Source of the DNA: a virus
Direction: 5' to 3' (one strand)
Length of the DNA: 7,267 nt
Virus record (IMG/VR): IMGVR_UViG_3300008222_000004
Below the pieces are notes generated by a model. That model saw only the letters and a list, made by a program, of their open reading frames with translations, was not told the DNA's origin and made no database searches. Position numbers and translations under genes: made by a program. This document shows positions 1 to 7,267 of this stretch, in pieces (within the stretch, counting starts at the first letter, position 1; each line of letters begins with the position of its first letter).

Positions 1-11
1 AAGTTTTAAAG

Positions 12-37
12 CGCTATCGGATTGCTGTCTGATAGCG
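12..37. other. Intergenic stem-loop: 7-bp stem cgctatc/gatagcg with a 12-nt loop
   Basis: Arms at 12..18 and 31..37 are perfect complements, extendable by A:T and G:T pairs (8..11 with 38..41). A T6 run follows on the plus strand. On the minus strand it lies about 55 nt upstream of the rep ATG across the circle junction. It is duplicated at 7156..7181. Possible roles are a terminator, a rep-leader structure or an ssDNA origin/packaging hairpin. Confidence 0.5.
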
Positions 38-53
38 TTTTTTCGTTTTACTC

Positions 54-82
54 ATACTACTTAGTAATCAATCATTTCGCAA
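54..82 (-). promoter_or_regulatory. Candidate sigma70 promoter for rep (TTGCGA - 17 nt - TAGTAT)
   Basis: Read on the minus strand, the -35 TTGCGA is at 82..77, the spacer is 17 nt and the -10 TAGTAT is at 59..54. It points across the circle junction toward the rep start at 7102. Sequence match only, in AT-rich DNA. Confidence 0.3.
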
Positions 83-244
83 AATAAATCCATCCCAGTA
101 ACAGGCATTCCCTCATAATCTTAACAAAAAGCACAGCTTGGCAAGGAAGAAGTTCAACGGCTGCGCCTCGCAACAGATAAAAATTATCATATGTAACACG
201 TAATCACTAACTATTAACCATCGATCACTTGATATCAAATAGCA

Positions 245-460
245 TTACCTGGTTAACAATTCTGATATCAAAGTTTCCGCCATTTGCTTTCGTTCGTAGG
301 CATCAGTGATATCATTTAATTTTTTATCAGATTCAATTAAACGCTCAGCATTTTCAATCAACCAAATAATAGCCTTACTTTTAGTTGCGTGACCAGAGGA
401 AGCTAAAAAGGAATTTAATGTAGCGTCTTGCTTTTCATCAAGTCTAAGAGGAAAGGCCAT
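245..460 (-). CDS. Ribbon-helix-helix (CopG/Arc/MetJ-like) DNA-binding protein, 71 aa, second gene of the cargo cassette
   Basis: MAFPLRLDEKQDATLNSFLASSGHATKSKAIIWLIENAERL fits a beta-strand/helix/helix RHH pattern. The preferred start is ATG 460 because a strong SD (GGGAGAG) lies about 6 nt upstream. That ATG also sits 1 nt after the TGA stop (464..462) of the upstream gene, which indicates translational coupling. The longer ORF starting at 508 has a hydrophobic, SD-less extension. Confidence 0.6.
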   Translation of the reverse strand: MAFPLRLDEKQDATLNSFLASSGHATKSKAIIWLIENAERLIESDKKLNDITDAYERKQMAETLISELLTR

Positions 461-461
461 A

Positions 462-656
462 TCAAACTCTCCCATCAAAAGAATAATGAGTAATAGCATG
501 TGACTCAAAAAAACCTAAAGTCTCCAATACTCGAACATAAGTACAACTAGGTGAAATAAAATCAACTGTGTACCATTTATCAGAACCAACAATTTTAATT
601 TTAGTTACTTTAACTTTTATATCTTCTGGTAATTTAATTTCAGAATGCTTAAACAT
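462..656 (-). CDS. Hypothetical 64-aa protein, first gene of the cargo cassette, beta-rich, no TM segment or signal peptide, family not recognised
   Basis: The ORF is in frame with the 462..686 track entry. The preferred start is ATG 656 (MFKHSEIKL...), preceded by SD AAGGGG with a 7-nt spacer. The ATG at 686 would lie just downstream of the predicted extended -10 at 689..697, at about the predicted transcription start, leaving no room for a ribosome-binding site. Confidence 0.5.
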   Translation of the reverse strand: MFKHSEIKLPEDIKVKVTKIKIVGSDKWYTVDFISPSCTYVRVLETLGFFESHAITHYSFDGRV

Positions 657-688
657 TTGATAACCCCTTTTGATTTGTTTATGCATCT

Positions 689-717
689 ATTATAGCAAAA
701 TAAAGGATTAATGATAC
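689..717 (-). promoter_or_regulatory. Extended -10 promoter for the two-gene cassette (TGcTATAAT)
   Basis: The minus strand reads ...GTATCA-17nt-(TGC)TATAAT. TATAAT is at 694..689 and the TG is at 697..696. The -35 position is occupied by GGTATCA, a heptamer that recurs at 744..750 and 773..779 (plus strand TGATACC). Confidence 0.5.
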
Positions 718-788
718 CATTTTGTGTGTTTAATTTGTTATTTTGATACCTTTTAACGCCCTAAAAATATACTGATACCCGTTCAACA

Positions 789-833
789 AATCAAAATAGC
801 AATTTGACCAATCAAAATAGCAATTTGATTGGT
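789..833. repeat. 19-bp direct repeat (aatcaaaatagcaatttga, 789..807 and 810..828, period 21) overlapping a perfect 10-bp-stem palindrome (accaatcaaa / tttgattggt, 807..816 and 824..833)
   Basis: Read directly from the sequence. It lies in the intergenic region between the zot stop and the cassette promoter. Confidence 0.85.
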
Positions 834-877
834 CGTGATTGATATCATAAACGACTTACCGGTTCGCCATTTTGATA

Positions 878-2251
878 TCAAAAAGTAGAAGGTCTTGAGG
901 CCAATAAAGAGCTATCATCATCGCCAGAATCAGGGTCTTGATAATCATCTTTGTCATAACAAACAACAACACGAGAAACATCACTATAAGTCACACGGTA
1001 AACACACTCTGAAAGTGTTTCAAAATCATAACCCATTTTTATAAGCGCCGTATTATCAGTGCTAAACATAAAATTATCACCTTCATAAACATCTATAAAA
1101 ACAATATTAAAAGACGAACTTGAAACATAAGTTAACGTATTTGAAAGTCTAGAATAAGCTTTCTGAACCATATAACCAGTAGAATAAAACGTATAATCAG
1201 CTAAAGGCTCAGAATGAGAAACTTTAAAACCAACCGCACTACTATTATCATCATCAGCAACAAAACTACCCGCTTTGTGTACTTCCACAGAGTCTGTTTT
1301 AACGGCCTCAATTGTTTTCTGAGTTTCTGAAATAACGACAGCTTCATCATCAGCGAAGAAACCCGAGACATAATAAATCCAAAAAGCCAAAATGGATAAT
1401 AAAAGAACCAAAGCAAACTTAAAACCGTTTGACTCAATCGGACTAGCAGCCGCCCCACTTTTGTTGTTTTTACCCGTTTGAGTTGATTTATACAATTTAA
1501 ATACATCGAGTGGAATCTTCCTTCTTTTAATTATATCGCCCTTCTTTGCCGTTAAACCTTTCTCTTGAGCATTGTGCTCAAAAGTACGTGGTCTACGTTG
1601 AAAATAAGGCAAAGGGAAACTATCAAGAGATTTATGTTGAACGGCAGTTTCAGCAACTGACCGAATCAACGAATGGACTTTGGTTATATCTGGAGTACAG
1701 AGTAAAACGTCCCAGTTAAATTTGCGGTGACGCATCAACGCATCTTTAATATTGCGTGGATAACGAATATGACCATTCGAATCACGCTCAGAAAGTGCTA
1801 AATCATCGGTGTAACCATCATCAGCAATACATGTAAGGCACGACATAGAATAATCACGTAACTCAACAGGCAGAGAGTCAACAGCAGACATAACAGAATC
1901 AGTAGAAGCACTACTGTCTAAAGCAACGTCATGTATTTTTAATTCATTTCTGTCTTTATCTGAATAAACATTTTGAACTTCATCAATCAACAACAACGCG
2001 CCAACTGGTAACCAGTGAAACCAGTTAGCAATAATATTATGACCAACATCATTAAGCGTTGAAAAACGCCAAAGCTGAGCCGAATCAGGAAACTTTTCAC
2101 CCAAAACTTTTTCAATAGATTCTAAATCTAAAATACCCTCAACATTTGTAATAACACAGCGGCCTTTACGTAAGGCCGGAAGTAAATCGAACCAAACGGC
2201 AGACGAGGACTTATAAGAACCGGGGTTCCCGTGATAAATTTTTGAAGCCAT
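878..2251 (-). CDS. zot: Zot / pI-family phage assembly ATPase (zonular occludens toxin-like), 457 aa
   Basis: The N-terminus MASKIYHGNPGSYKSSSAVW...ITNVEG closely resembles the CTXphi Zot N-terminus as I recall it (HHGAPGSYKTSGALW...ITNVRG). A deviant Walker A GNPGSYKS is at 2207..2230 and a Walker B LLLIDE at aa 86-91. A single central TM (FKFALVLLLSILAFWIYYVSGFF, about aa 277-299) is followed by a roughly 155-aa C-terminal domain with an acidic tail. The ATG abuts the stop of the upstream gene. Confidence 0.9.
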   Translation of the reverse strand: MASKIYHGNPGSYKSSSAVWFDLLPALRKGRCVITNVEGILDLESIEKVLGEKFPDSAQLWRFSTLNDVGHNIIANWFHWLPVGALLLIDEVQNVYSDKDRNELKIHDVALDSSASTDSVMSAVDSLPVELRDYSMSCLTCIADDGYTDDLALSERDSNGHIRYPRNIKDALMRHRKFNWDVLLCTPDITKVHSLIRSVAETAVQHKSLDSFPLPYFQRRPRTFEHNAQEKGLTAKKGDIIKRRKIPLDVFKLYKSTQTGKNNKSGAAASPIESNGFKFALVLLLSILAFWIYYVSGFFADDEAVVISETQKTIEAVKTDSVEVHKAGSFVADDDNSSAVGFKVSHSEPLADYTFYSTGYMVQKAYSRLSNTLTYVSSSSFNIVFIDVYEGDNFMFSTDNTALIKMGYDFETLSECVYRVTYSDVSRVVVCYDKDDYQDPDSGDDDSSLLASRPSTF

Positions 2252-2659
2252 CTATAACACCGCCAACACAAATCGAGCAAGATAAGCTTCAACAATTAAA
2301 TTAAAAGCCTGAAAGATCTTTAATTCAACAGCAGCATTTCTAATGTCAGCAGGAAGATTACCAGCAAACTTTTCAACAAGCTGAATAAAGCCAACATCAG
2401 CAAGAATAAGCTTGGCAACACTAAAAGCAGACTCGACAGAATAAATCAAAATCGTCACTTTCATGAAAATAATAAACTCGACAAGATAAGCGAATAAACG
2501 ATCAATAAAATCAGGTATATCGACAGAAAAGAAATCGATAGCAATCGTAAAAAACGAATCTATTTGTGAAAAAATCGAGCCAAAAGTCCAATCATCACCA
2601 GCCGCAAACGCAGAAAATGACGAGAACATAAACATACATAAAATTAATTTTTTGAACAT
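2252..2659 (-). CDS. pVI/Ace-like hydrophobic minor coat protein candidate, 135 aa
   Basis: Very hydrophobic protein with several TM-like segments. It sits between the pIII-like gene and zot, as in Ff (gVI) and CTXphi (ace). It overlaps the upstream gene by 16 nt and abuts zot. No sequence motif was recognised. Confidence 0.55.
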   Translation of the reverse strand: MFKKLILCMFMFSSFSAFAAGDDWTFGSIFSQIDSFFTIAIDFFSVDIPDFIDRLFAYLVEFIIFMKVTILIYSVESAFSVAKLILADVGFIQLVEKFAGNLPADIRNAAVELKIFQAFNLIVEAYLARFVLAVL

Positions 2660-4149
2660 ACAATTACCACCGCACTCATAGATGCTATCATCATTATTAC
2701 AAGGCCAATCTGACCGTAATACTTAGACCAAGAATCCAACGGACTTGCAACAGTAGTTGTATGACCGCCTTTTGATATCGAAAATCCTAAATCACTGCCA
2801 CCGCCAGAAGAGGTAACATCTACTGTGAAAGATTCCTTTAAATCCTTATAACCGTTTTCTATTGTCGAAGTTAAAAGCGCTTTCTTATCTTCAACTTTTG
2901 TTTTAAATAAAGATAAATCAGAATCACTAAGGGAAATCCTTCCCGAAGGAAGATCAATACCACTAGTCTTGGTTAAGGAAATTTTATCGCTTAATTTATC
3001 AATACCTTCAACAACTTTATCAAGTCCATCTTTTGTCGTAGTATTTAATTTATCAAGTCCATCTTTTGTCGTAGTATTTAATTTATTAAGACCATCTTTA
3101 GTCGAATTATTTAATTTATTAAGACCATCTTTAGTCGAATTATTTAATTTATTAAGACCATCTTCAGTCGTACTTTTTAAATTACTAAAACCAGAAGAAT
3201 TCGTATTTTTTAAATCAACAAGACCATCTTTTGTCGTTGCTTCTAATTTATTAAAATTTGAATTTAATGATTCAAAGCCCAAAATATTCGTTGAATCTAA
3301 ACGCGATAATTTATTAATGATATCCGCATAATCTTGTGATTTATCACCATCGGTACCGCCATCGCCATCAGTACCGCCATCGCCATCAGTACCGCCATCG
3401 CCATCAGTACCGCCATCATTATCAATAAAGCATTTCGTCTTAACTTTATGTGTAGATTCACTGCAAGATATGATCTTAAATGTAAAATTTCTACCGCCAG
3501 CTCTCAAAGCACAATGAGCACGAGCAGAATTTACTTTTTGTCTAGCTTCAGGACCAGCACAATAAGCCCCCTCATCTGGTTTGGTATCACTGTCACCACA
3601 ATTAAACCAACAATCTTCACCAGTTTGACTACCATCAGAACCGCCATCAGTACCGCCATCAGAACCGCCATCAGTACCGCCATCAGTACCGCCATCAGTA
3701 CCGCCATCACCTTTATCAACACAATCAGTAGTTAAGGTTTTTTTTTGCTCATCACAATGGGGCGTAAAAACACTAGTAGAAGGACATTTATTTCGCTCTT
3801 TTTTTATTTCGTTTTTCACGTTATCACTACTACAAAAAAGCTCTTCTGGTTTTTCACAAACCCCCATATCATTAACTTCTTCACCAAAAGGGCAACTACT
3901 GGTATCTTCTGGTTTCACAGTAAATACAGTATTAAACCTATTTTGATACTTAACTGAATCCCCTTTAATAAAATACGATTCACCAGTTGCAGCCCTCATC
4001 TGATATACCCAAGTCTGCATATCAACAGTTGAGCCAACACCTATACCGCCAGAATCCCCGTAATTACCAACATATATAACCTCCCTCAATAAAGCAGAAG
4101 CAGAAAAGGAAAATAAGATTAACATTGAAAATAAAATATTTTTAAACAT
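2644..4149 (-). CDS. pIII-like adsorption / minor coat protein, 501 aa
   Basis: Signal peptide MFKNILFSMLILFSFSASA|LL. Two 6-Cys modules are each followed by a Gly/Asp linker: (GGTD)n at aa 147-173 and (DGGTDG)4 at aa 245-269. An 11-aa repeat array covers about aa 300-377. A C-terminal membrane anchor is IGLVIMMIASMSAVVIVCSKN. SD AGGA lies 5 nt before the ATG. The gene is downstream of the major coat gene, as in Ff gIII and CTXphi orfU. Confidence 0.8.
   Translation of the reverse strand: MFKNILFSMLILFSFSASALLREVIYVGNYGDSGGIGVGSTVDMQTWVYQMRAATGESYFIKGDSVKYQNRFNTVFTVKPEDTSSCPFGEEVNDMGVCEKPEELFCSSDNVKNEIKKERNKCPSTSVFTPHCDEQKKTLTTDCVDKGDGGTDGGTDGGTDGGSDGGTDGGSDGSQTGEDCWFNCGDSDTKPDEGAYCAGPEARQKVNSARAHCALRAGGRNFTFKIISCSESTHKVKTKCFIDNDGGTDGDGGTDGDGGTDGDGGTDGDKSQDYADIINKLSRLDSTNILGFESLNSNFNKLEATTKDGLVDLKNTNSSGFSNLKSTTEDGLNKLNNSTKDGLNKLNNSTKDGLNKLNTTTKDGLDKLNTTTKDGLDKVVEGIDKLSDKISLTKTSGIDLPSGRISLSDSDLSLFKTKVEDKKALLTSTIENGYKDLKESFTVDVTSSGGGSDLGFSISKGGHTTTVASPLDSWSKYYGQIGLVIMMIASMSAVVIVCSKN
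3021..3251. repeat. 33-bp tandem repeat array, about 7 units, inside the pIII-like CDS
   Basis: Units 3021..3053 and 3054..3086 are identical, as are 3087..3119 and 3120..3152. Units starting at 3153, 3186 and 3219 are diverged. They encode 11-aa repeats of the form (N/D)KLN(N/T)(S/T)TKDGL. Confidence 0.95.
3343..3417. repeat. 18-bp tandem repeat (atcgccatcagtaccgcc, about 4 units) encoding the (DGGTDG)4 linker
   Basis: Read directly from the sequence, within the pIII-like CDS. Confidence 0.95.
3631..3711. repeat. 12-bp tandem repeat (gccatcagtacc / gccatcagaacc, about 6 units) encoding the (GGTD/GGSD)n linker
   Basis: Read directly from the sequence. It shares the string ccatcagtaccgccatc with the 3343..3417 array, in the same reading frame. 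Confidence 0.95.
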
Positions 4150-5088: not shown

Positions 5089-5148
5089 GTAACGAATATG
5101 GAACGAATTTGGAACGTATTTGGAACGTATTTGGAACGCTTGGACGGG
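5089..5148. promoter_or_regulatory. Array of about five 11-bp iterons, GGAACG(A/T)AT(A/T)T, probable operator
   Basis: Units are gtaacgaatat (5089), ggaacgaattt (5100), ggaacgtattt (5111), ggaacgtattt (5122), ggaacgctt (5133) and ggacggg (5142). The period is about one helical turn. The array lies between the predicted -10 of the structural-operon promoter and its RBS, and upstream of the divergent RHH gene. Confidence 0.7.
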
Positions 5149-5205: not shown

Positions 5206-5412
5206 TTGTCATATAGTGAAAATGAATATCAAGAAATGATAAAAAGAGATTTAGCTGAAATGTCAAAAATGATGTCAAGCAAAGGAGTAACAACGGTTAG
5301 AATTAAAAATGGAATATATGAAAAAGTAAAAGCAATCTGTGATAAAGAAAATTTAACAGTTGTCGATTATATTAACTCAGCAGTAGCAGAAAAAATCATA
5401 AGCGAAAAGTAG
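5206..5412 (+). CDS. Ribbon-helix-helix transcriptional regulator candidate, 68 aa, the only plus-strand gene
   Basis: The C-terminal half GVTTVRIKNGIYEKVKAICDKENLTVVDYINSAVAEKI fits a strand-helix-helix RHH pattern. It has a TTG start with SD AGAGG about 8 nt upstream. It is divergent from the structural operon and convergent with rep. Confidence 0.55.
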   Translation: MSYSENEYQEMIKRDLAEMSKMMSSKGVTTVRIKNGIYEKVKAICDKENLTVVDYINSAVAEKIISEK

Positions 5413-5422
5413 AAATAATGAG

Positions 5423-5445
5423 CGGGGAGTGGTTTGACCTCCCCG
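5423..5445. terminator. Hairpin between convergent genes, candidate bidirectional terminator
   Basis: The arms cggggag (5423..5429) and ctccccg (5439..5445) are GC-rich, with a 9-nt loop. Both flanks are AT-rich but have imperfect U tracts. It lies between the RHH gene stop (5412) and the rep stop (5456). Confidence 0.55.
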
Positions 5446-5455
5446 ATTATAAAAT

Positions 5456-7102
5456 TTAAATATTTTCATCCTTCGCGACTAAAGGACGTTTAATTAAAGA
5501 GATCCTGTCATCTAAAAACAGACCTTTAAAAAAACCTCTTCTATGCTTTGAATTTGCAATTGAATAAATATCATCTGCAATAGATTCTAAATAACTAGTA
5601 TTATGATTAAATTCGAGTGGAAATTGATATTTCACAACCTTAGTTTTAACCCGTTCGTCAAAACAATCCTCTTCAAATTCATCATGAGATTTACCGCGAG
5701 CATTAAAACCAGATTCAAAAGTTAAAAAATCATCAGCAAACTTATCAAGGCCAAAAAGATAACGGGCAACTGCAACAGAACCGCCAGACTCAGCTAAATC
5801 TAATACTAAATTTCTATGTTTAAGTTTTAATATTTGTTTCCATTCAACAGGCAAAATATGACAAAGTAAATCTGCTTTATCTTCTTCCTGCGAAATGATT
5901 TCTTCATCAGTAGCTTGCTTACCTAACCCGAAATGATCACGCAATCCTTTCGACCAACGCAACATGTTTTTACCTTTAATTGCTCGCGCGTAAAATAAAA
6001 ATAAAAATTTAGCTTCTTTACGTTGTTCCGGTGTTAAATCAGAATCAACAGAGTCAGAAAGCAAAGCCCACGGAGTCTTAGAACCTTTTTTACCAAGTTT
6101 TGTCATACCCTTGGTCGCTTCGTCCATCATATCCCAAGTTATTTTTTTACCCGATTTAGTTTCTAATATTTGCTCATCACTACCAAACTTAGAAATATAT
6201 TCACCTGCCTTGTCACCATTCTGTATATCAAGACCATTCATATTAGGCATACCCAAACCAGCACTAATAGACACCGATTTCCAACGGTTTAAAATATGAC
6301 GCCAAGCATCTGATTGATCATTTAAAATATAACCCTTATCAGTACGGTTTGTTGAAGGTAATTTCTTATCAGAAACAATGATTAAGTGAAAATGAGGATG
6401 CCAACCATTTAAACCATGCAAAACTTCAAATGATCTTATATTACCGATGATCCCATATTTATTTTTAAAACGAGTTGCCCAAGCACCCGCCCAAAATTTA
6501 GTTAATGCACAAGATATTTTAGGTAATAAATCTTCTATTTTATCCGATGCAGTGTGAGGGGTTGTAAGTGTCAAAAGAGATAAATTATTACCAATGGCCT
6601 CAGCTTGGTTGGCCATCACGCGTAATTCATTTGATTTACGTTCATTAATTTTAGCGGCACAAATGGGACAAGTTGAAGCACTAGCACAAGAGCTAAGCCC
6701 TGAATAAAAAGATTTTTTATTAGTTGAAGATTTAACAATTGAAACAGTCGAAGAAATATTAATTCTAGTACACGAACAAGTTCGATGATAAACAGGATAA
6801 CCACCTTTATTTAGTGGCGTATGATCACCATGAAAAAGATAGAGCGCATCCCTTGCGGCATCCTGTAGTTTAAAACGAATTTTTCGTGCCTCCTTAGTAG
6901 CTTCAACACTTGAAAGCTTACCAAGAACAACAAATTCGCCCGTTGATTCATCTAAAAACTCAGATGATTTTTTAGGGGGGGTACGTAACTTTGCATATAT
7001 ACCGAGGGGCTCACCGCCCATTCTTTGCTCAGCCTTCGCCATCACAGGCGATGAGCCCCCACAAAAACTTGTATTTTTTAATAATACTTTGCTATTATTC
7101 AT
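5456..7102 (-). CDS. Rolling-circle replication initiator (HUH endonuclease, Rep_1 / pC194 / phage gene II-type), 548 aa
   Basis: Motif I is LLTLTTP (6557..6577). Motif II (HUH) is HPHFHLIIV (HPHFHL at 6383..6400). Motif III is GEYISKF with Tyr302 at 6197..6199. An upstream Cys cluster, HRTCSC...GLSSCASASTCPICAAKINER (6659..6778), is typical of gene II/X-family phage and plasmid Reps. The SD is weak, so the exact start is uncertain. Confidence 0.9.
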   Translation of the reverse strand: MNNSKVLLKNTSFCGGSSPVMAKAEQRMGGEPLGIYAKLRTPPKKSSEFLDESTGEFVVLGKLSSVEATKEARKIRFKLQDAARDALYLFHGDHTPLNKGGYPVYHRTCSCTRINISSTVSIVKSSTNKKSFYSGLSSCASASTCPICAAKINERKSNELRVMANQAEAIGNNLSLLTLTTPHTASDKIEDLLPKISCALTKFWAGAWATRFKNKYGIIGNIRSFEVLHGLNGWHPHFHLIIVSDKKLPSTNRTDKGYILNDQSDAWRHILNRWKSVSISAGLGMPNMNGLDIQNGDKAGEYISKFGSDEQILETKSGKKITWDMMDEATKGMTKLGKKGSKTPWALLSDSVDSDLTPEQRKEAKFLFLFYARAIKGKNMLRWSKGLRDHFGLGKQATDEEIISQEEDKADLLCHILPVEWKQILKLKHRNLVLDLAESGGSVAVARYLFGLDKFADDFLTFESGFNARGKSHDEFEEDCFDERVKTKVVKYQFPLEFNHNTSYLESIADDIYSIANSKHRRGFFKGLFLDDRISLIKRPLVAKDENI

Positions 7103-7144
7103 AATGAATTAAACCTAGAAGCCGTCGAAGCTGTGGTTAATTTA

Positions 7145-7267
7145 AAGTTTTAAAGCGCTATCGGATTGCTGTCTGATAGCGTTTTTTCGTTTTACTCATA
7201 CTACTTAGTAATCAATCATTTCGCAAAATAAATCCATCCCAGTAACAGGCATTCCCTCATAATCTTA
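7145..7267. repeat. Terminal redundancy, copy 2, identical to 1..123
   Basis: Same 123-bp string as the window start. It is not an independent element. Confidence 0.95.

What the first reader, a model, noticed from the sequence alone, without database searches (positions are those of the whole stretch)
245..717. Self-promoted, translationally coupled two-gene module (64-aa unknown plus 71-aa RHH) at the ctxAB-equivalent cargo locus; possible reverse-order addiction or regulatory module
After zot, where CTXphi carries ctxAB and other inoviruses carry accessory genes (morons), this phage has two small genes not needed for canonical inovirus morphogenesis. They have their own extended -10 promoter (TGcTATAAT). 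Both have strong SDs, and the stop and start are separated by one nucleotide (TGAtATG). The second protein has an RHH fold signature typical of type II antitoxins and autorepressors. The first is a beta-rich protein that I cannot assign to any family. No integrase is present, so an episomal replicative form would benefit from an addiction or superinfection-exclusion module, and toxin-antitoxin (TA) pairs are known in Pf-type prophages. The unknown-first, RHH-second order is the less common arrangement. The function is entirely open.
Basis: partly seen in the sequence, partly recalled or inferred. Interest (0 to 1): 0.7.

Follow-up and report, generated by a model that had tools for sequence, protein, structure and literature searches.

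The report
Self-regulated phage operon with swappable first gene
The two small genes after zot in this filamentous phage are real, but they look like a DNA-binding regulator that controls its own operon plus an exchangeable passenger gene of unknown function, not a toxin-antitoxin addiction pair.

Summary
On the minus strand, a conserved extended -10 promoter (TGcTATAAT, 697-689) precedes a 64-aa gene (656-462) and a 71-aa gene (460-245), separated by TGAtATG. Both have Shine-Dalgarno sites and both are under purifying selection.

ORF71 belongs to an unannotated inovirus family (PHROG 36048, function unknown) with a ribbon-helix-helix (RHH)-like fold and a long C-terminal helix. In every relative examined, spanning three different Rep families, its operon is bracketed by arrays of an 8-bp box, TGNTATCA, usually 32-34 bp apart. 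In the window, TGATATCA occurs 5 times against 0.17 expected, and the promoter-proximal box lies over the -35.

The third base of the box co-varies with residue 4 of the protein: Thr goes with C; Pro, Val or Leu goes with A. I predicted this for two lineages fetched afterwards, and both fitted. ORF71 is therefore very probably a sequence-specific autorepressor.

The gene in front of it is replaceable. There are five mutually unrelated partner families (64, 228, 101-109, 79/92 and 74 aa), and one phage has no upstream gene. Nearly identical ORF71 proteins sit behind different partners. ORF64 matches no toxin family or any other family. The addiction reading is disfavoured, and the layout most resembles acr-aca-type operons. 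ORF64's function remains open.

The parts
689..697 (-). Extended -10 promoter element TGcTATAAT of the ORF64-ORF71 operon
   Evidence: Read directly. TG(c/t)TATAAT is conserved in window, L004-L008; L002 has TGCTATTAT.
712..719 (-). Promoter-proximal operator box TGGTATCA, lying over the -35 position (17 bp upstream of TATAAT)
   Evidence: Conserved as (T/A)GGTATCA in L004-L007 and as TGCTATCA in L008.
744..750 (-). Operator box GGTATCA (7-mer variant)
   Evidence: 4 GGTATCA in the window against 0.55 expected, 3 of them here. Lies 32 bp from the proximal box.
773..779 (-). Operator box GGTATCA (7-mer variant)
   Evidence: Conserved as GGGTATCA in L004, L006, L007 and L008.
785..834 (.). Two copies of an imperfect palindrome (AATCAAATTGCTATTTTGATT) between the box groups; role unknown
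   Evidence: I5, I20. Conserved in L004-L008 whether or not ORF64 is present.
840..847 (.). Distal operator box TGATATCA
   Evidence: The box pair at 33-bp spacing after zot is conserved in L002, L004, L005, L007 and L008.
873..880 (.). Distal operator box TGATATCA, overlapping the zot stop codon (880-878)
664..667 (-). Shine-Dalgarno site (GGGG) of ORF64, 7 nt before the ATG
   Evidence: The leader and SD are conserved, also in L008, where they serve ORF71 directly.
462..656 (-). ORF64: 64-aa soluble protein with no homologues of known function; the exchangeable first gene of the operon
   Evidence: Only about 7 contigs carry it, always directly upstream of ORF71. dN/dS 0.22-0.74. No Pfam, PHROG, NCBIfam, PADLOC, PDB or Foldseek assignment.
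467..473 (-). Shine-Dalgarno site (GGGAGAG) of ORF71, inside the 3' end of ORF64
245..460 (-). ORF71: 71-aa RHH-like DNA-binding protein with a long C-terminal helix; the conserved regulator of the cassette
   Evidence: PHROG 36048, E 2.5e-7. 18 relatives. AF2 model: extended 1-8, helix 9-22, helix 27-70. The named Foldseek top hits are mostly RHH proteins, with weak E-values. Its residue 4 co-varies with the box sequence.
307..314 (.). Downstream-array box TGATATCA inside ORF71 codons N49-D50-I51-T52
   Evidence: In L008 the same position reads TGCTATCA, at the cost of a D50A change.
263..270 (.). Downstream-array box TGATATCA inside ORF71 codons L64-I65-S66
   Evidence: In L008 it reads TGCTATCA with an I65L change.
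230..237 (.). Downstream-array box TGATATCA, 7 nt after the ORF71 stop
   Evidence: Present at +8 in L002, L006 and L008.
229..272 (.). 44-nt unit with two boxes 33 bp apart; direct repeat (73% identical) of 839-882, so the operon is bracketed
   Evidence: family D1.

Best explanation
ORF71 is a small ribbon-helix-helix type DNA-binding protein. It has an N-terminal strand, two helices, and a second helix that continues into a long, probably coiled-coil, C-terminal helix. It recognises the 8-bp box TG(A/G)TATCA.

The boxes are arrayed, mostly about three helical turns apart, at both ends of its own operon. Five lie upstream, from the zot stop codon to the -35 of the TGcTATAAT promoter. Three lie at or just beyond the 3' end of ORF71.

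Binding over the -35 would repress the operon (negative autoregulation). Bridging between the two arrays through the C-terminal helix could loop or insulate the cassette.

ORF64 is the exchangeable first gene of this regulated operon. It is a lineage-specific passenger whose product is made together with the regulator, not a toxin that ORF71 neutralises.

Shown here:
- the genes, the promoter and the boxes;
- their conservation in related phages;
- the co-variation between protein residue 4 and the box sequence;
- the exchangeability of the partner gene.

Inferred:
- actual DNA binding and repression;
- oligomerisation and looping;
- that ORF64 is non-toxic cargo.
For: (1) Box enrichment. TGATATCA occurs 5 times in the window against 0.17 expected, all within 230-880. 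GGTATCA occurs 4 times against 0.55, three of them in the promoter region.

(2) The arrays go with ORF71, not with the replication module. In 12 loci from at least 7 lineages, almost every TGNTATCA in the genome lies in arrays flanking the ORF71-homologue operon. This holds whether Rep is Rep_1 (window, L002, L008), Phage_GPA (L011; the Dolos Rep was not scanned) or Phage_CRI (L013, L023). It also holds whether the operon runs co-directionally with or divergently from rep.

(3) Specificity co-variation.
- Homologues with Thr at residue 4 have TGCTATCA/TGATAGCA. These are L008; Shewanella group 2 (L013, L015, L023, L024); L021/L022; and pSbal04 (L025).
- Homologues with Pro, Val or Leu at residue 4 have TGATATCA.
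- I predicted the Thr-C link before fetching L021/L022 and pSbal04, and both fitted.
- Both box types occur within the marine clade and within the Shewanella clade, so there were at least two independent switches.

(4) In L008 all eight boxes switched together. This includes the two inside the coding sequence, at the price of amino-acid changes D50A and I65L.

(5) Fold. The AF2 model and the Foldseek hits fit an RHH. The hits include TCP domain, NikR, ParD, RHH-type MazE, AtaR and PutA, with probability up to 0.98. The sequence has the strand, helix, G-x-x-T turn and helix pattern.

(6) The promoter, leader and SD are conserved in L008, where they drive ORF71 directly without any ORF64.

(7) The partner is exchangeable.
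- Upstream genes of 64, 228, 101-109, 79/92 and 74 aa are mutually unrelated by BLAST and hhalign.
- The ORF71 proteins of L007 and L002 are about 93% identical over residues 25-70 yet have different partners.
Against: - No binding or expression experiment exists.
- The RHH assignment is fold-level only. Pfam RHH_1 is hit by 1 of 16 members at E 0.06, the best Foldseek E-value is 0.087, and model pLDDT is 75.7 from a shallow alignment.
- The tight 1-2 nt coupling of partner and ORF71 in most lineages would also fit two proteins that act as a complex.
- The most conserved part of ORF64 is a C-terminal tail (FESHAIT.YSF) that the model leaves disordered, as expected for a binding motif. Its target could be ORF71.
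- Antitoxin DNA-binding modules are known to be shuffled among toxins, so exchangeability alone does not exclude a toxin.
- The function of the downstream array is not explained by simple autorepression.
Confidence: 0.62

Rival explanations
1. Anti-defence (acr-aca-like) operon. This reading gives ORF64 a function within the best explanation.
- ORF64 and the other variable first genes would be inhibitors of host immunity: anti-CRISPR, anti-restriction or similar.
- They would be expressed from a strong promoter when the replicative form appears.
- ORF71 would be the Aca-like autorepressor that then shuts the promoter down.
For: - The layout matches acr-aca loci. Unrelated small genes without homologues sit directly upstream of a conserved small DNA-binding gene, in one operon, across unrelated mobile-element backbones.
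- The promoter has a consensus extended -10 with an operator over the -35.
- An RHH-type Aca with a long helical extension (Aca14) has been shown to autorepress such operons (bioRxiv 10.64898/2026.07.27.740549).
Against: - No similarity to any known Acr or Aca could be tested; no anti-defence library was available.
- Ten candidate Acr proteins from Pseudomonas inoviruses tested by Roux et al. were all negative (PMC6813254).
- Bracketing arrays of 3-5 phased boxes are not the usual aca operator layout.
- The host and its defence systems are unknown.
Confidence: 0.22
2. Reverse-order type II toxin-antitoxin (addiction) module. ORF64 would be a small toxin. ORF71 would be an RHH antitoxin that neutralises it by binding and represses the operon, stabilising the non-integrating replicative form.
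For: - It is a two-gene autoregulated operon with 1-nt coupling.
- The RHH fold has Foldseek hits to ParD, RHH-type MazE and AtaR antitoxins.
- The Dolos authors noted weak similarity of the homologue Orf9 to a Maz-like antitoxin.
- Toxin-antitoxin sets with shuffled partners are reported in inoviruses (PMC6813254).
- The window encodes no integrase.
Against: - ORF64 matches no toxin family or fold.
- ORF71 occurs with no upstream gene in the L008-L010 phages, seen in at least 6 contigs.
- Five unrelated partners exist, and near-identical ORF71 proteins sit behind different partners. No partner-specific residues are visible in ORF71.
- The cassette is also present in phages with an adjacent integrase gene (L013, L015).
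Confidence: 0.1
3. Regulatory pair or genetic switch. ORF64 would itself be a regulator, such as an antirepressor or co-repressor. It would act on ORF71 or on the Arc-like 68-aa repressor (5206-5412, plus strand), as in the P22 immI region (Arc, Mnt and Ant).
For: - The phage carries two RHH-like regulators. The 68-aa protein hits the PHROG 'Arc-like repressor' at 1.3e-7 and has its own 11-bp tandem repeats at 5098-5145.
- ORF64 has a conserved, probably disordered tail that looks like a binding motif.
- In L002 the replacement first gene has an RHH-like C-terminus, and the promoter-proximal boxes are replaced by five 23-nt repeats.
Against: - The window and L008 share the same Arc-like repressor type (70% identical) and the same promoter, but only the window has ORF64.
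- There is no detectable DNA-binding or antirepressor similarity in ORF64.
Confidence: 0.1
4. Centromere-like stability system. ORF71 would be a ParR/ParG/omega-type RHH centromere-binding protein, and the box arrays would be partition sites for the replicative form.
For: - Arrays of repeated RHH sites flank the operon on both sides, as parC1 and parC2 flank the par2 locus of pB171 (from my own knowledge).
- The C-terminal helix is coiled-coil-like.
- The phage is episomal.
Against: - None of the partner genes is an NTPase motor: no Pfam hit in any partner scanned (the 74-aa pSbal04 partner was not scanned), and no Walker motif seen by eye in the 228-aa protein.
- Multicopy replicative forms have little need for partition.
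- The cassette also occurs in integrated prophages.
Confidence: 0.05

Closest known systems
acr-aca operons, in particular the RHH regulator Aca14 (bioRxiv 10.64898/2026.07.27.740549)
   Same: - Variable small first gene(s) without homologues, followed by a conserved small DNA-binding gene in one operon.
- An operator in the promoter.
- The cassette is spread across unrelated mobile backbones.
- Aca14 is an RHH with a long helical extension.
   Different: - No sequence link to any Acr or Aca was tested.
- The operators here are arrays of 3-5 phased 8-bp boxes on both sides of the operon, including inside the regulator's own coding sequence.
- No anti-defence activity is known.
P22 Mnt and Arc repressors (MetJ/Arc RHH superfamily)
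   Same: - A small phage RHH repressor.
- Mnt likewise adds a C-terminal coiled-coil oligomerisation helix to the RHH domain (from my own knowledge).
- The window also has an Arc-like second regulator.
   Different: - No detectable sequence similarity.
- Mnt binds one operator, not bracketing arrays.
- The regulated gene differs: in P22 it is the antirepressor ant.
Reverse-order type II toxin-antitoxin modules (HigBA, HicAB, BrnTA)
   Same: - The upstream gene is followed by a tightly coupled small DNA-binding gene.
- BrnA is an RHH antitoxin (from my own knowledge).
- The operon is autoregulated.
   Different: - ORF64 has no RelE, HicA or BrnT similarity.
- The upstream gene is exchangeable or absent without any change in ORF71.
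Inovirus immunity repressors with multiple operators (SW1 FpsR; CTXphi RstR heteroimmunity)
   Same: - A phage-encoded repressor next to rep with several operators. FpsR has four (PMC8569181).
- There are discrete specificity classes (A-type and C-type boxes), like the RstR immunity types (from my own knowledge).
   Different: - The boxes bracket only ORF71's own operon, not the rep promoter. The rep promoter candidate at 144-115 lies about 85 nt beyond the last box.
Type Ib/II plasmid partition centromere-binding proteins (ParG, omega, ParR; pB171 parC1/parC2)
   Same: An RHH protein plus arrays of short repeats upstream and downstream of its operon.
   Different: No partner ATPase or actin-like motor. 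The upstream genes are small and unrelated to each other.

Membership tests
Type II toxin-antitoxin module (reverse order) | The upstream gene belongs to a recognised toxin family or fold | tested here: not met
   No hit in Pfam, PHROGs (best E 0.015, unknown function), NCBIfam, PADLOC or the PDB profile search. Foldseek against PDB and BFVD gave nothing below E 0.4, on a low-confidence model.
Type II toxin-antitoxin module (reverse order) | Toxin and antitoxin are co-inherited as a cognate pair | tested here: not met
   ORF71 homologues follow five unrelated genes, or none. L007 and L002 have near-identical ORF71 proteins but different partners.
Type II toxin-antitoxin module (reverse order) | The antitoxin carries a DNA-binding domain and autoregulates the operon | tested here: met
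   RHH-like fold. A box lies over the -35, and box sequence co-varies with the protein. Binding itself is inferred.
Type II toxin-antitoxin module (reverse order) | The toxin arrests growth and the antitoxin neutralises it by direct binding | not testable with these tools
   Needs expression assays.
Ribbon-helix-helix (MetJ/Arc/CopG) DNA-binding proteins | N-terminal strand, helix, G-x-S/T/N turn, helix; detectable by profile or structure | tested here: inconclusive
   - The pattern MAxxLRLxExQ...G.ATKSKA is invariant in 16 members.
- AF2 gives extended 1-8, helix 9-22, helix 27-70.
- The named Foldseek top hits are mostly RHH proteins, but E >= 0.087.
- Pfam RHH_1 is hit by only 1 of 16 members, at E 0.061.
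Ribbon-helix-helix (MetJ/Arc/CopG) DNA-binding proteins | Strand residues read repeated operator sites | tested here: met
   Residue 4 of the strand (Thr versus Pro/Val/Leu) co-varies perfectly with box base 3 (C versus A) in at least 9 lineages, and the link predicted two of them. This evidence is comparative, not biochemical.
acr-aca anti-defence operon | Hypervariable small genes directly upstream of a conserved small regulator gene in one operon, on diverse mobile elements | tested here: met
acr-aca anti-defence operon | The regulator represses the operon promoter through repeats in it | tested here: inconclusive
   Boxes overlap the -35 and 5' leader in all lineages. Repression was not measured.
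acr-aca anti-defence operon | The first gene inhibits CRISPR-Cas or another defence system; similarity to known Acr or Aca | not testable with these tools
   No anti-defence library or Aca14 sequence was at hand. Activity needs experiments.
Plasmid partition locus (ParR/ParG/omega type) | A partner NTPase motor gene in the operon | tested here: not met
   The partners are 64-228 aa. Those scanned (64, 79/92, 109 and 228 aa) have no Pfam hit, and I saw no Walker motif in the 228-aa protein by eye. The 74-aa pSbal04 partner was not scanned.
PHROG 36048 (unknown function) | Full-length profile match | tested here: met
   E 2.5e-7, residues 1-63 against profile positions 1-63 of 72. The family carries no functional annotation.

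The most novel reading that the evidence does not exclude
The ORF71 cassette would be an inovirus-wide regulated docking site for counter-defence or host-manipulation genes, an RHH analogue of acr-aca loci. The cassette consists of the RHH regulator, the phased box arrays bracketing the operon, and discrete A-type and C-type specificity classes. On this reading, ORF64 and the five or more unrelated partner families are new anti-defence proteins of filamentous phages. The two box/protein specificity classes would have evolved so that co-resident phages do not cross-repress each other.
Probability: 0.2. Interest if true: 0.7.

Novelty: new variant of a known kind. Interest (0 to 1): 0.5.

Why it matters
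- It gives a testable function, and a predicted operator, to a protein family currently listed as 'unknown function' (PHROG 36048; Dolos Orf9). The family is conserved in marine and Shewanella filamentous phages.
- The one-residue/one-base co-variation (Thr4 with C; Pro, Val or Leu with A) is a clean natural experiment on how RHH proteins read DNA. It can be checked with a single point mutant.
- The conserved regulator can serve as bait to find the variable passenger genes of inoviruses, among which anti-defence, exclusion or host-modulating factors are likely.
- It warns against calling every 'small unknown gene plus RHH' pair a toxin-antitoxin system.
- Shewanella phage Dolos carries the same cassette in a cultivable, genetically tractable host, so the questions are experimentally accessible.

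Tried and rejected
- **Close relatives of the genome.** A whole-window megablast against phage records found nothing.
- **ORF64 family and fold.** No assignment in Pfam, PHROGs, NCBIfam or PADLOC, the PDB profile search, or tblastn against phages and plasmids. A full HMMER scan of 1.84 billion representatives found one true homologue. Its three other hits were multi-repeat proteins (SH3_3, PPC, low complexity) that disagree with each other, so I treat them as chance. AF2 gave only pLDDT 62.5, and Foldseek against PDB and BFVD gave nothing.
- **More ORF64 loci.** IMG/VR gave none. The metagenome scan added only the source-like contig L019 and L020.
- **Host identification.** The ORF71 profile found nothing in GTDB genomes. 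Rep relatives there are at most 40% identical and taxonomically scattered, so the host is unknown.
- **TGATATCA as the Rep nick site.** I considered this because Rep_1 and phiX-type nick sites contain CTTGATA (from my own knowledge). I rejected it because the same arrays occur in phages with Phage_GPA and Phage_CRI Reps, and because they co-vary with ORF71.
- **Box pairs as obligatory ssDNA hairpins.** Rejected. The C-type arrays in L008 are mostly in one orientation.
- **The partner families as distant homologues of one another.** hhalign and BLAST say no; at best L021 versus pSbal04 gives E 0.04 in a six-sequence database.
- **A dif-like XerCD site at window 181-208.** By eye, only about 4 of 11 matches per arm. 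Not supported.
- **Known RNA families in 1-1000.** None.
Full report
**1. What is in the window**

The window is a complete filamentous-phage genome. It has a 123-bp terminal direct repeat, so the circle is 7144 bp, at 35% G+C.

All morphogenesis genes lie on the minus strand:

| Gene | Coordinates | Evidence |
|---|---|---|
| Rep | 7102-5456 | Pfam Rep_1 |
| ssDNA-binding-like protein, 100 aa | 5072-4770 | by position |
| 79-aa protein | 4769-4530 | |
| Major coat protein | 4507-4286 | |
| pIII-like | 4149-2644 | |
| pVI/Ace-like | 2659-2252 | |
| Zot/pI | 2251-878 | Pfam Zot, 4.5e-45 |

A 68-aa Arc-like gene lies on the plus strand at 5206-5412. The finding concerns the two genes between zot and rep.

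**2.

On the minus strand:
- TGcTATAAT lies at 697-689.
- SD GGGG lies at 667-664. ORF64 runs 656-462.
- SD GGGAGAG lies at 473-467.
- The ORF64 stop TGA (464-462), one base, then the ATG of ORF71 at 460-458. ORF71 runs 460-245.

The 64-aa start is the right one. The upstream ATG at 686 lies 3 nt after the -10 and is not conserved, whereas all homologues begin MFK or MYK and are 64 aa long. Pairwise dN/dS is 0.22-0.74 for ORF64 and 0.16-0.38 for ORF71. The promoter, leader and SD are conserved in six related loci.

**3. ORF64 cannot be assigned to any family**

- No family match in Pfam, PHROGs, NCBIfam or PADLOC.
- No PDB match by profile.
- No tblastn match in phage or plasmid records.
- Only close homologues exist, 62-92% identical, in about seven metagenomic contigs.
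- The three distant HMMER hits are repeat proteins of inconsistent folds. I treat them as chance.
- The AF2 model is weak (pLDDT 62.5): three strands at 19-46 and a disordered tail. Foldseek finds nothing.
- The most conserved segment is that tail, FESHAIT.YSF.
- The protein is soluble, with pI about 7.9.

**4. ORF71 belongs to a real but unannotated family**

- It matches PHROG 36048 (unknown function) over its full length, E 2.5e-7.
- It has a homologue in Shewanella phage Dolos, Orf9.
- A profile search finds 18 relatives, in marine metagenomic inoviruses and in Shewanella.
- A further relative lies on S. baltica OS155 'plasmid' pSbal04, which is an inovirus replicative form.
- The model shows an extended N-terminus (1-8), a helix at 9-22, and one long helix at 27-70 (pLDDT 75.7).
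- The named Foldseek hits are mostly RHH proteins: TCP domain, NikR, ParD, RHH-type MazE, AtaR and PutA. Probability reaches 0.98, but E-values are weak, at 0.087 or higher.
- Pfam does not recognise the family.
- The C-terminal half resembles coiled coils.

'RHH plus C-terminal helix' is therefore a fold-level inference, supported by the invariant MA..LR..E.Q...G.ATKSKA pattern.

**5. The key result: operator arrays that travel with ORF71**

TGATATCA occurs five times in the window against 0.17 expected. All copies lie at the two ends of the operon: 880-873 and 847-840 upstream, and 314-307, 270-263 and 237-230 downstream. Three GGTATCA variants fill the promoter region at 779-773, 750-744 and 718-712. 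The last of these, TGGTATCA, covers the -35. The spacings are 33, about 68, 29 and 32 bp upstream, and 44 and 33 bp downstream. A 44-nt unit holding two boxes is directly repeated at 229-272 and 839-882.

The same picture holds in every locus with an ORF71 homologue:
- There are three to five boxes, usually 32-34 bp apart, immediately upstream of the operon.
- There are one to four boxes at or after its end.
- There are almost no boxes elsewhere in the genome.

This is independent of the Rep family. Rep is Rep_1 in window, L002 and L008; Phage_GPA in L011 (the Dolos Rep was not scanned); and Phage_CRI in L013, L023 and pSbal04. It is also independent of orientation: co-directional with rep in the marine phages, divergent in the Shewanella phages. 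That excludes a replication-origin explanation and ties the boxes to ORF71.

**6. Co-variation between protein and box**

| Residue 4 of ORF71 homologue | N-terminal strand and loci | Box |
|---|---|---|
| Thr | AITLRL (L008); AITLRL (L013, L023, L024); AITIRL (L015); AITIRL (L021/L022); AFTVRV (pSbal04) | TGCTATCA / TGATAGCA |
| Pro, Val or Leu | AFPLRL (window, L007); AFLLRP (L002); AFPIRP (L006); AMVLRL (Dolos, L011, L017/L018) | TGATATCA, with some TGGTATCA |

I formulated the Thr-C rule from L008 and L013. I then checked it on P0024 (L021/L022) and on pSbal04, and both fitted. Both box types occur within the marine clade and within the Shewanella clade, so the switch happened at least twice.

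In L008 all eight boxes are C-type, including the two embedded in the gene. There the change costs amino-acid substitutions: AAT GAT ATC becomes AAT GCT ATC (D50A), and TTG ATA TCA becomes TTG CTA TCA (I65L). The DNA motif is therefore under selection in its own right. This is strong comparative evidence that ORF71 reads these boxes through its N-terminal strand, as RHH proteins do.

**7. The first gene is exchangeable**

| Gene in front of the ORF71 homologue | Where | Gap to ORF71 homologue |
|---|---|---|
| ORF64 family | window, L004-L007, L019, L020 | 1-2 nt |
| 228-aa protein | L002, L003 | 2 nt |
| 101-109-aa family | Dolos, L011, L013, L017, L023 | |
| 79/92-aa protein | L021 | |
| 74-aa protein | pSbal04 | |
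| nothing | L008-L010 | |

In L008-L010 the same promoter, leader and SD drive ORF71 directly, and an unrelated 64-aa gene follows the downstream array. The partner families are mutually unrelated by BLAST and hhalign. Those scanned against Pfam (all but the 74-aa pSbal04 protein) have no hit.

ORF71 phylogeny does not follow the partner. The L007 protein (ORF64 partner) and the L002 protein (228-aa partner) are about 93% identical over residues 25-70. That is closer than two ORF64-linked proteins are to each other. In L002 the promoter-proximal boxes are replaced by five 23-nt repeats, and the 228-aa protein ends in an RHH-like segment. The first gene may there bring its own control.

**8. 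Interpretation**

The best-supported mechanism is that ORF71 is a sequence-specific RHH-type autorepressor whose boxes bracket its own operon. ORF64 is the exchangeable first gene of that operon. The downstream array and the coiled-coil-like helix suggest looping or insulation, but that is inference. The rep promoter candidate (144-115) lies about 85 nt beyond the last box, in an intergenic region that is conserved with or without extra inserted ORFs. I therefore see no direct control of rep.

The toxin-antitoxin reading is disfavoured for three reasons:
- ORF64 has no toxin similarity.
- A partnerless version of the cassette exists.
- The partners are unrelated, and ORF71 shows no partner-specific changes.

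It is not excluded, because tight coupling and a conserved tail in ORF64 are compatible with a complex.

The layout most resembles acr-aca operons. An RHH Aca, Aca14, was recently validated. However, Roux et al. found no Acr among ten candidate Pseudomonas inovirus proteins. A centromere-like role lacks a motor protein.

**9. Novelty and score**

The family and its operator arrays are, as far as the tools and the literature search show, undescribed. The Dolos preprint only notes weak similarity of Orf9 to a Maz-like antitoxin. In kind, it is an autoregulated small-repressor operon with variable cargo, which is a new variant of a known kind.

Interest is moderate. The protein-DNA co-variation and the bait value for inovirus accessory genes are attractive. 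The function of ORF64, which was the core of the original finding, remains open.

Noticed in passing
window 1-123 and 7145-7267: A 123-bp exact terminal direct repeat. The window is a circular 7144-bp genome assembled with an overlap. L019 (7286 bp, JGI Ga0209292_1012160), whose ORF64 is 100% identical, looks like the source contig or a sibling.
   Followed up: partly
window 5098-5145 (between the ssb-like gene and the 68-aa gene): Four to five tandem 11-bp repeats, GGAACG(A/T)ATTT, lie in the divergent promoter region. The region sits between the structural operon and the plus-strand 68-aa Arc-like gene (PHROG 582, E 1.3e-7). They are probably that repressor's operators, a set distinct from the TGATATCA boxes.
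   Followed up: partly
window 5420-5446: A G+C-rich hairpin (GAGCGGGGAG...CTCCCCG) lies between the convergent ends of the 68-aa gene and rep. It looks like a bidirectional terminator.
   Followed up: no
window 1-244 plus 7103-7144 (intergenic region upstream of rep): This region is strongly conserved with L002, L006 and L008. It includes a 14-bp-arm hairpin at 8-41 and the block GGTTAATAGTTAGTGATTACGTGTTACAT. It probably holds the origin or packaging signals and the rep promoter (candidate at 144-115). I tried a dif-like reading of 181-208 and it did not fit.
   Followed up: partly
L006 1840-1968 and L008 3693-3887: Unrelated small ORFs (42 aa and 64 aa) are inserted immediately after the downstream box array, before the conserved rep-upstream region. 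This is a second cargo insertion point.
   Followed up: partly
L002 2896-3024 and 3069-3755: Five copies of a 23-nt repeat (TTGTAATATGTGACAGGTCTATA) replace the promoter-proximal boxes. The 228-aa first gene ends in an RHH-like segment (SLAITKKTADALNAY...SRNALIRLALAALI). This may be a different regulator with its own operators.
   Followed up: partly
L025 (NC_009038.1, Shewanella baltica OS155 pSbal04): This 7995-bp 'plasmid' encodes zot, a DUF2523 family protein, a collagen-like protein at the pIII position and an RCR Rep. It also carries the ORF71 cassette, so it is an inovirus replicative form deposited as a plasmid.
   Followed up: partly
L021 about 680-720 and L025 about 20-60 (downstream of the cassette): A dif-like sequence (ACTTCGCACAATGCAGATTATGTTACG) follows the downstream array. 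It is a likely XerCD attachment site. L013 and L015 instead have a tyrosine integrase there, and L017 has a partial integrase-like ORF.
   Followed up: no
window 2644-4149 (pIII-like gene): The adsorption protein carries two glycine-rich GGTDG repeat linkers and a run of KDGLNKLNN(S/T)T repeats. pSbal04 has a 'collagen-like' protein at the same position.
   Followed up: no
window 5456-7102: The Rep protein only just reaches the Pfam Rep_1 threshold (33.6 bits against a cut-off of 33.2). Its nearest genomic relatives are at most 40% identical and scattered over many phyla, so the host cannot be inferred.
   Followed up: partly
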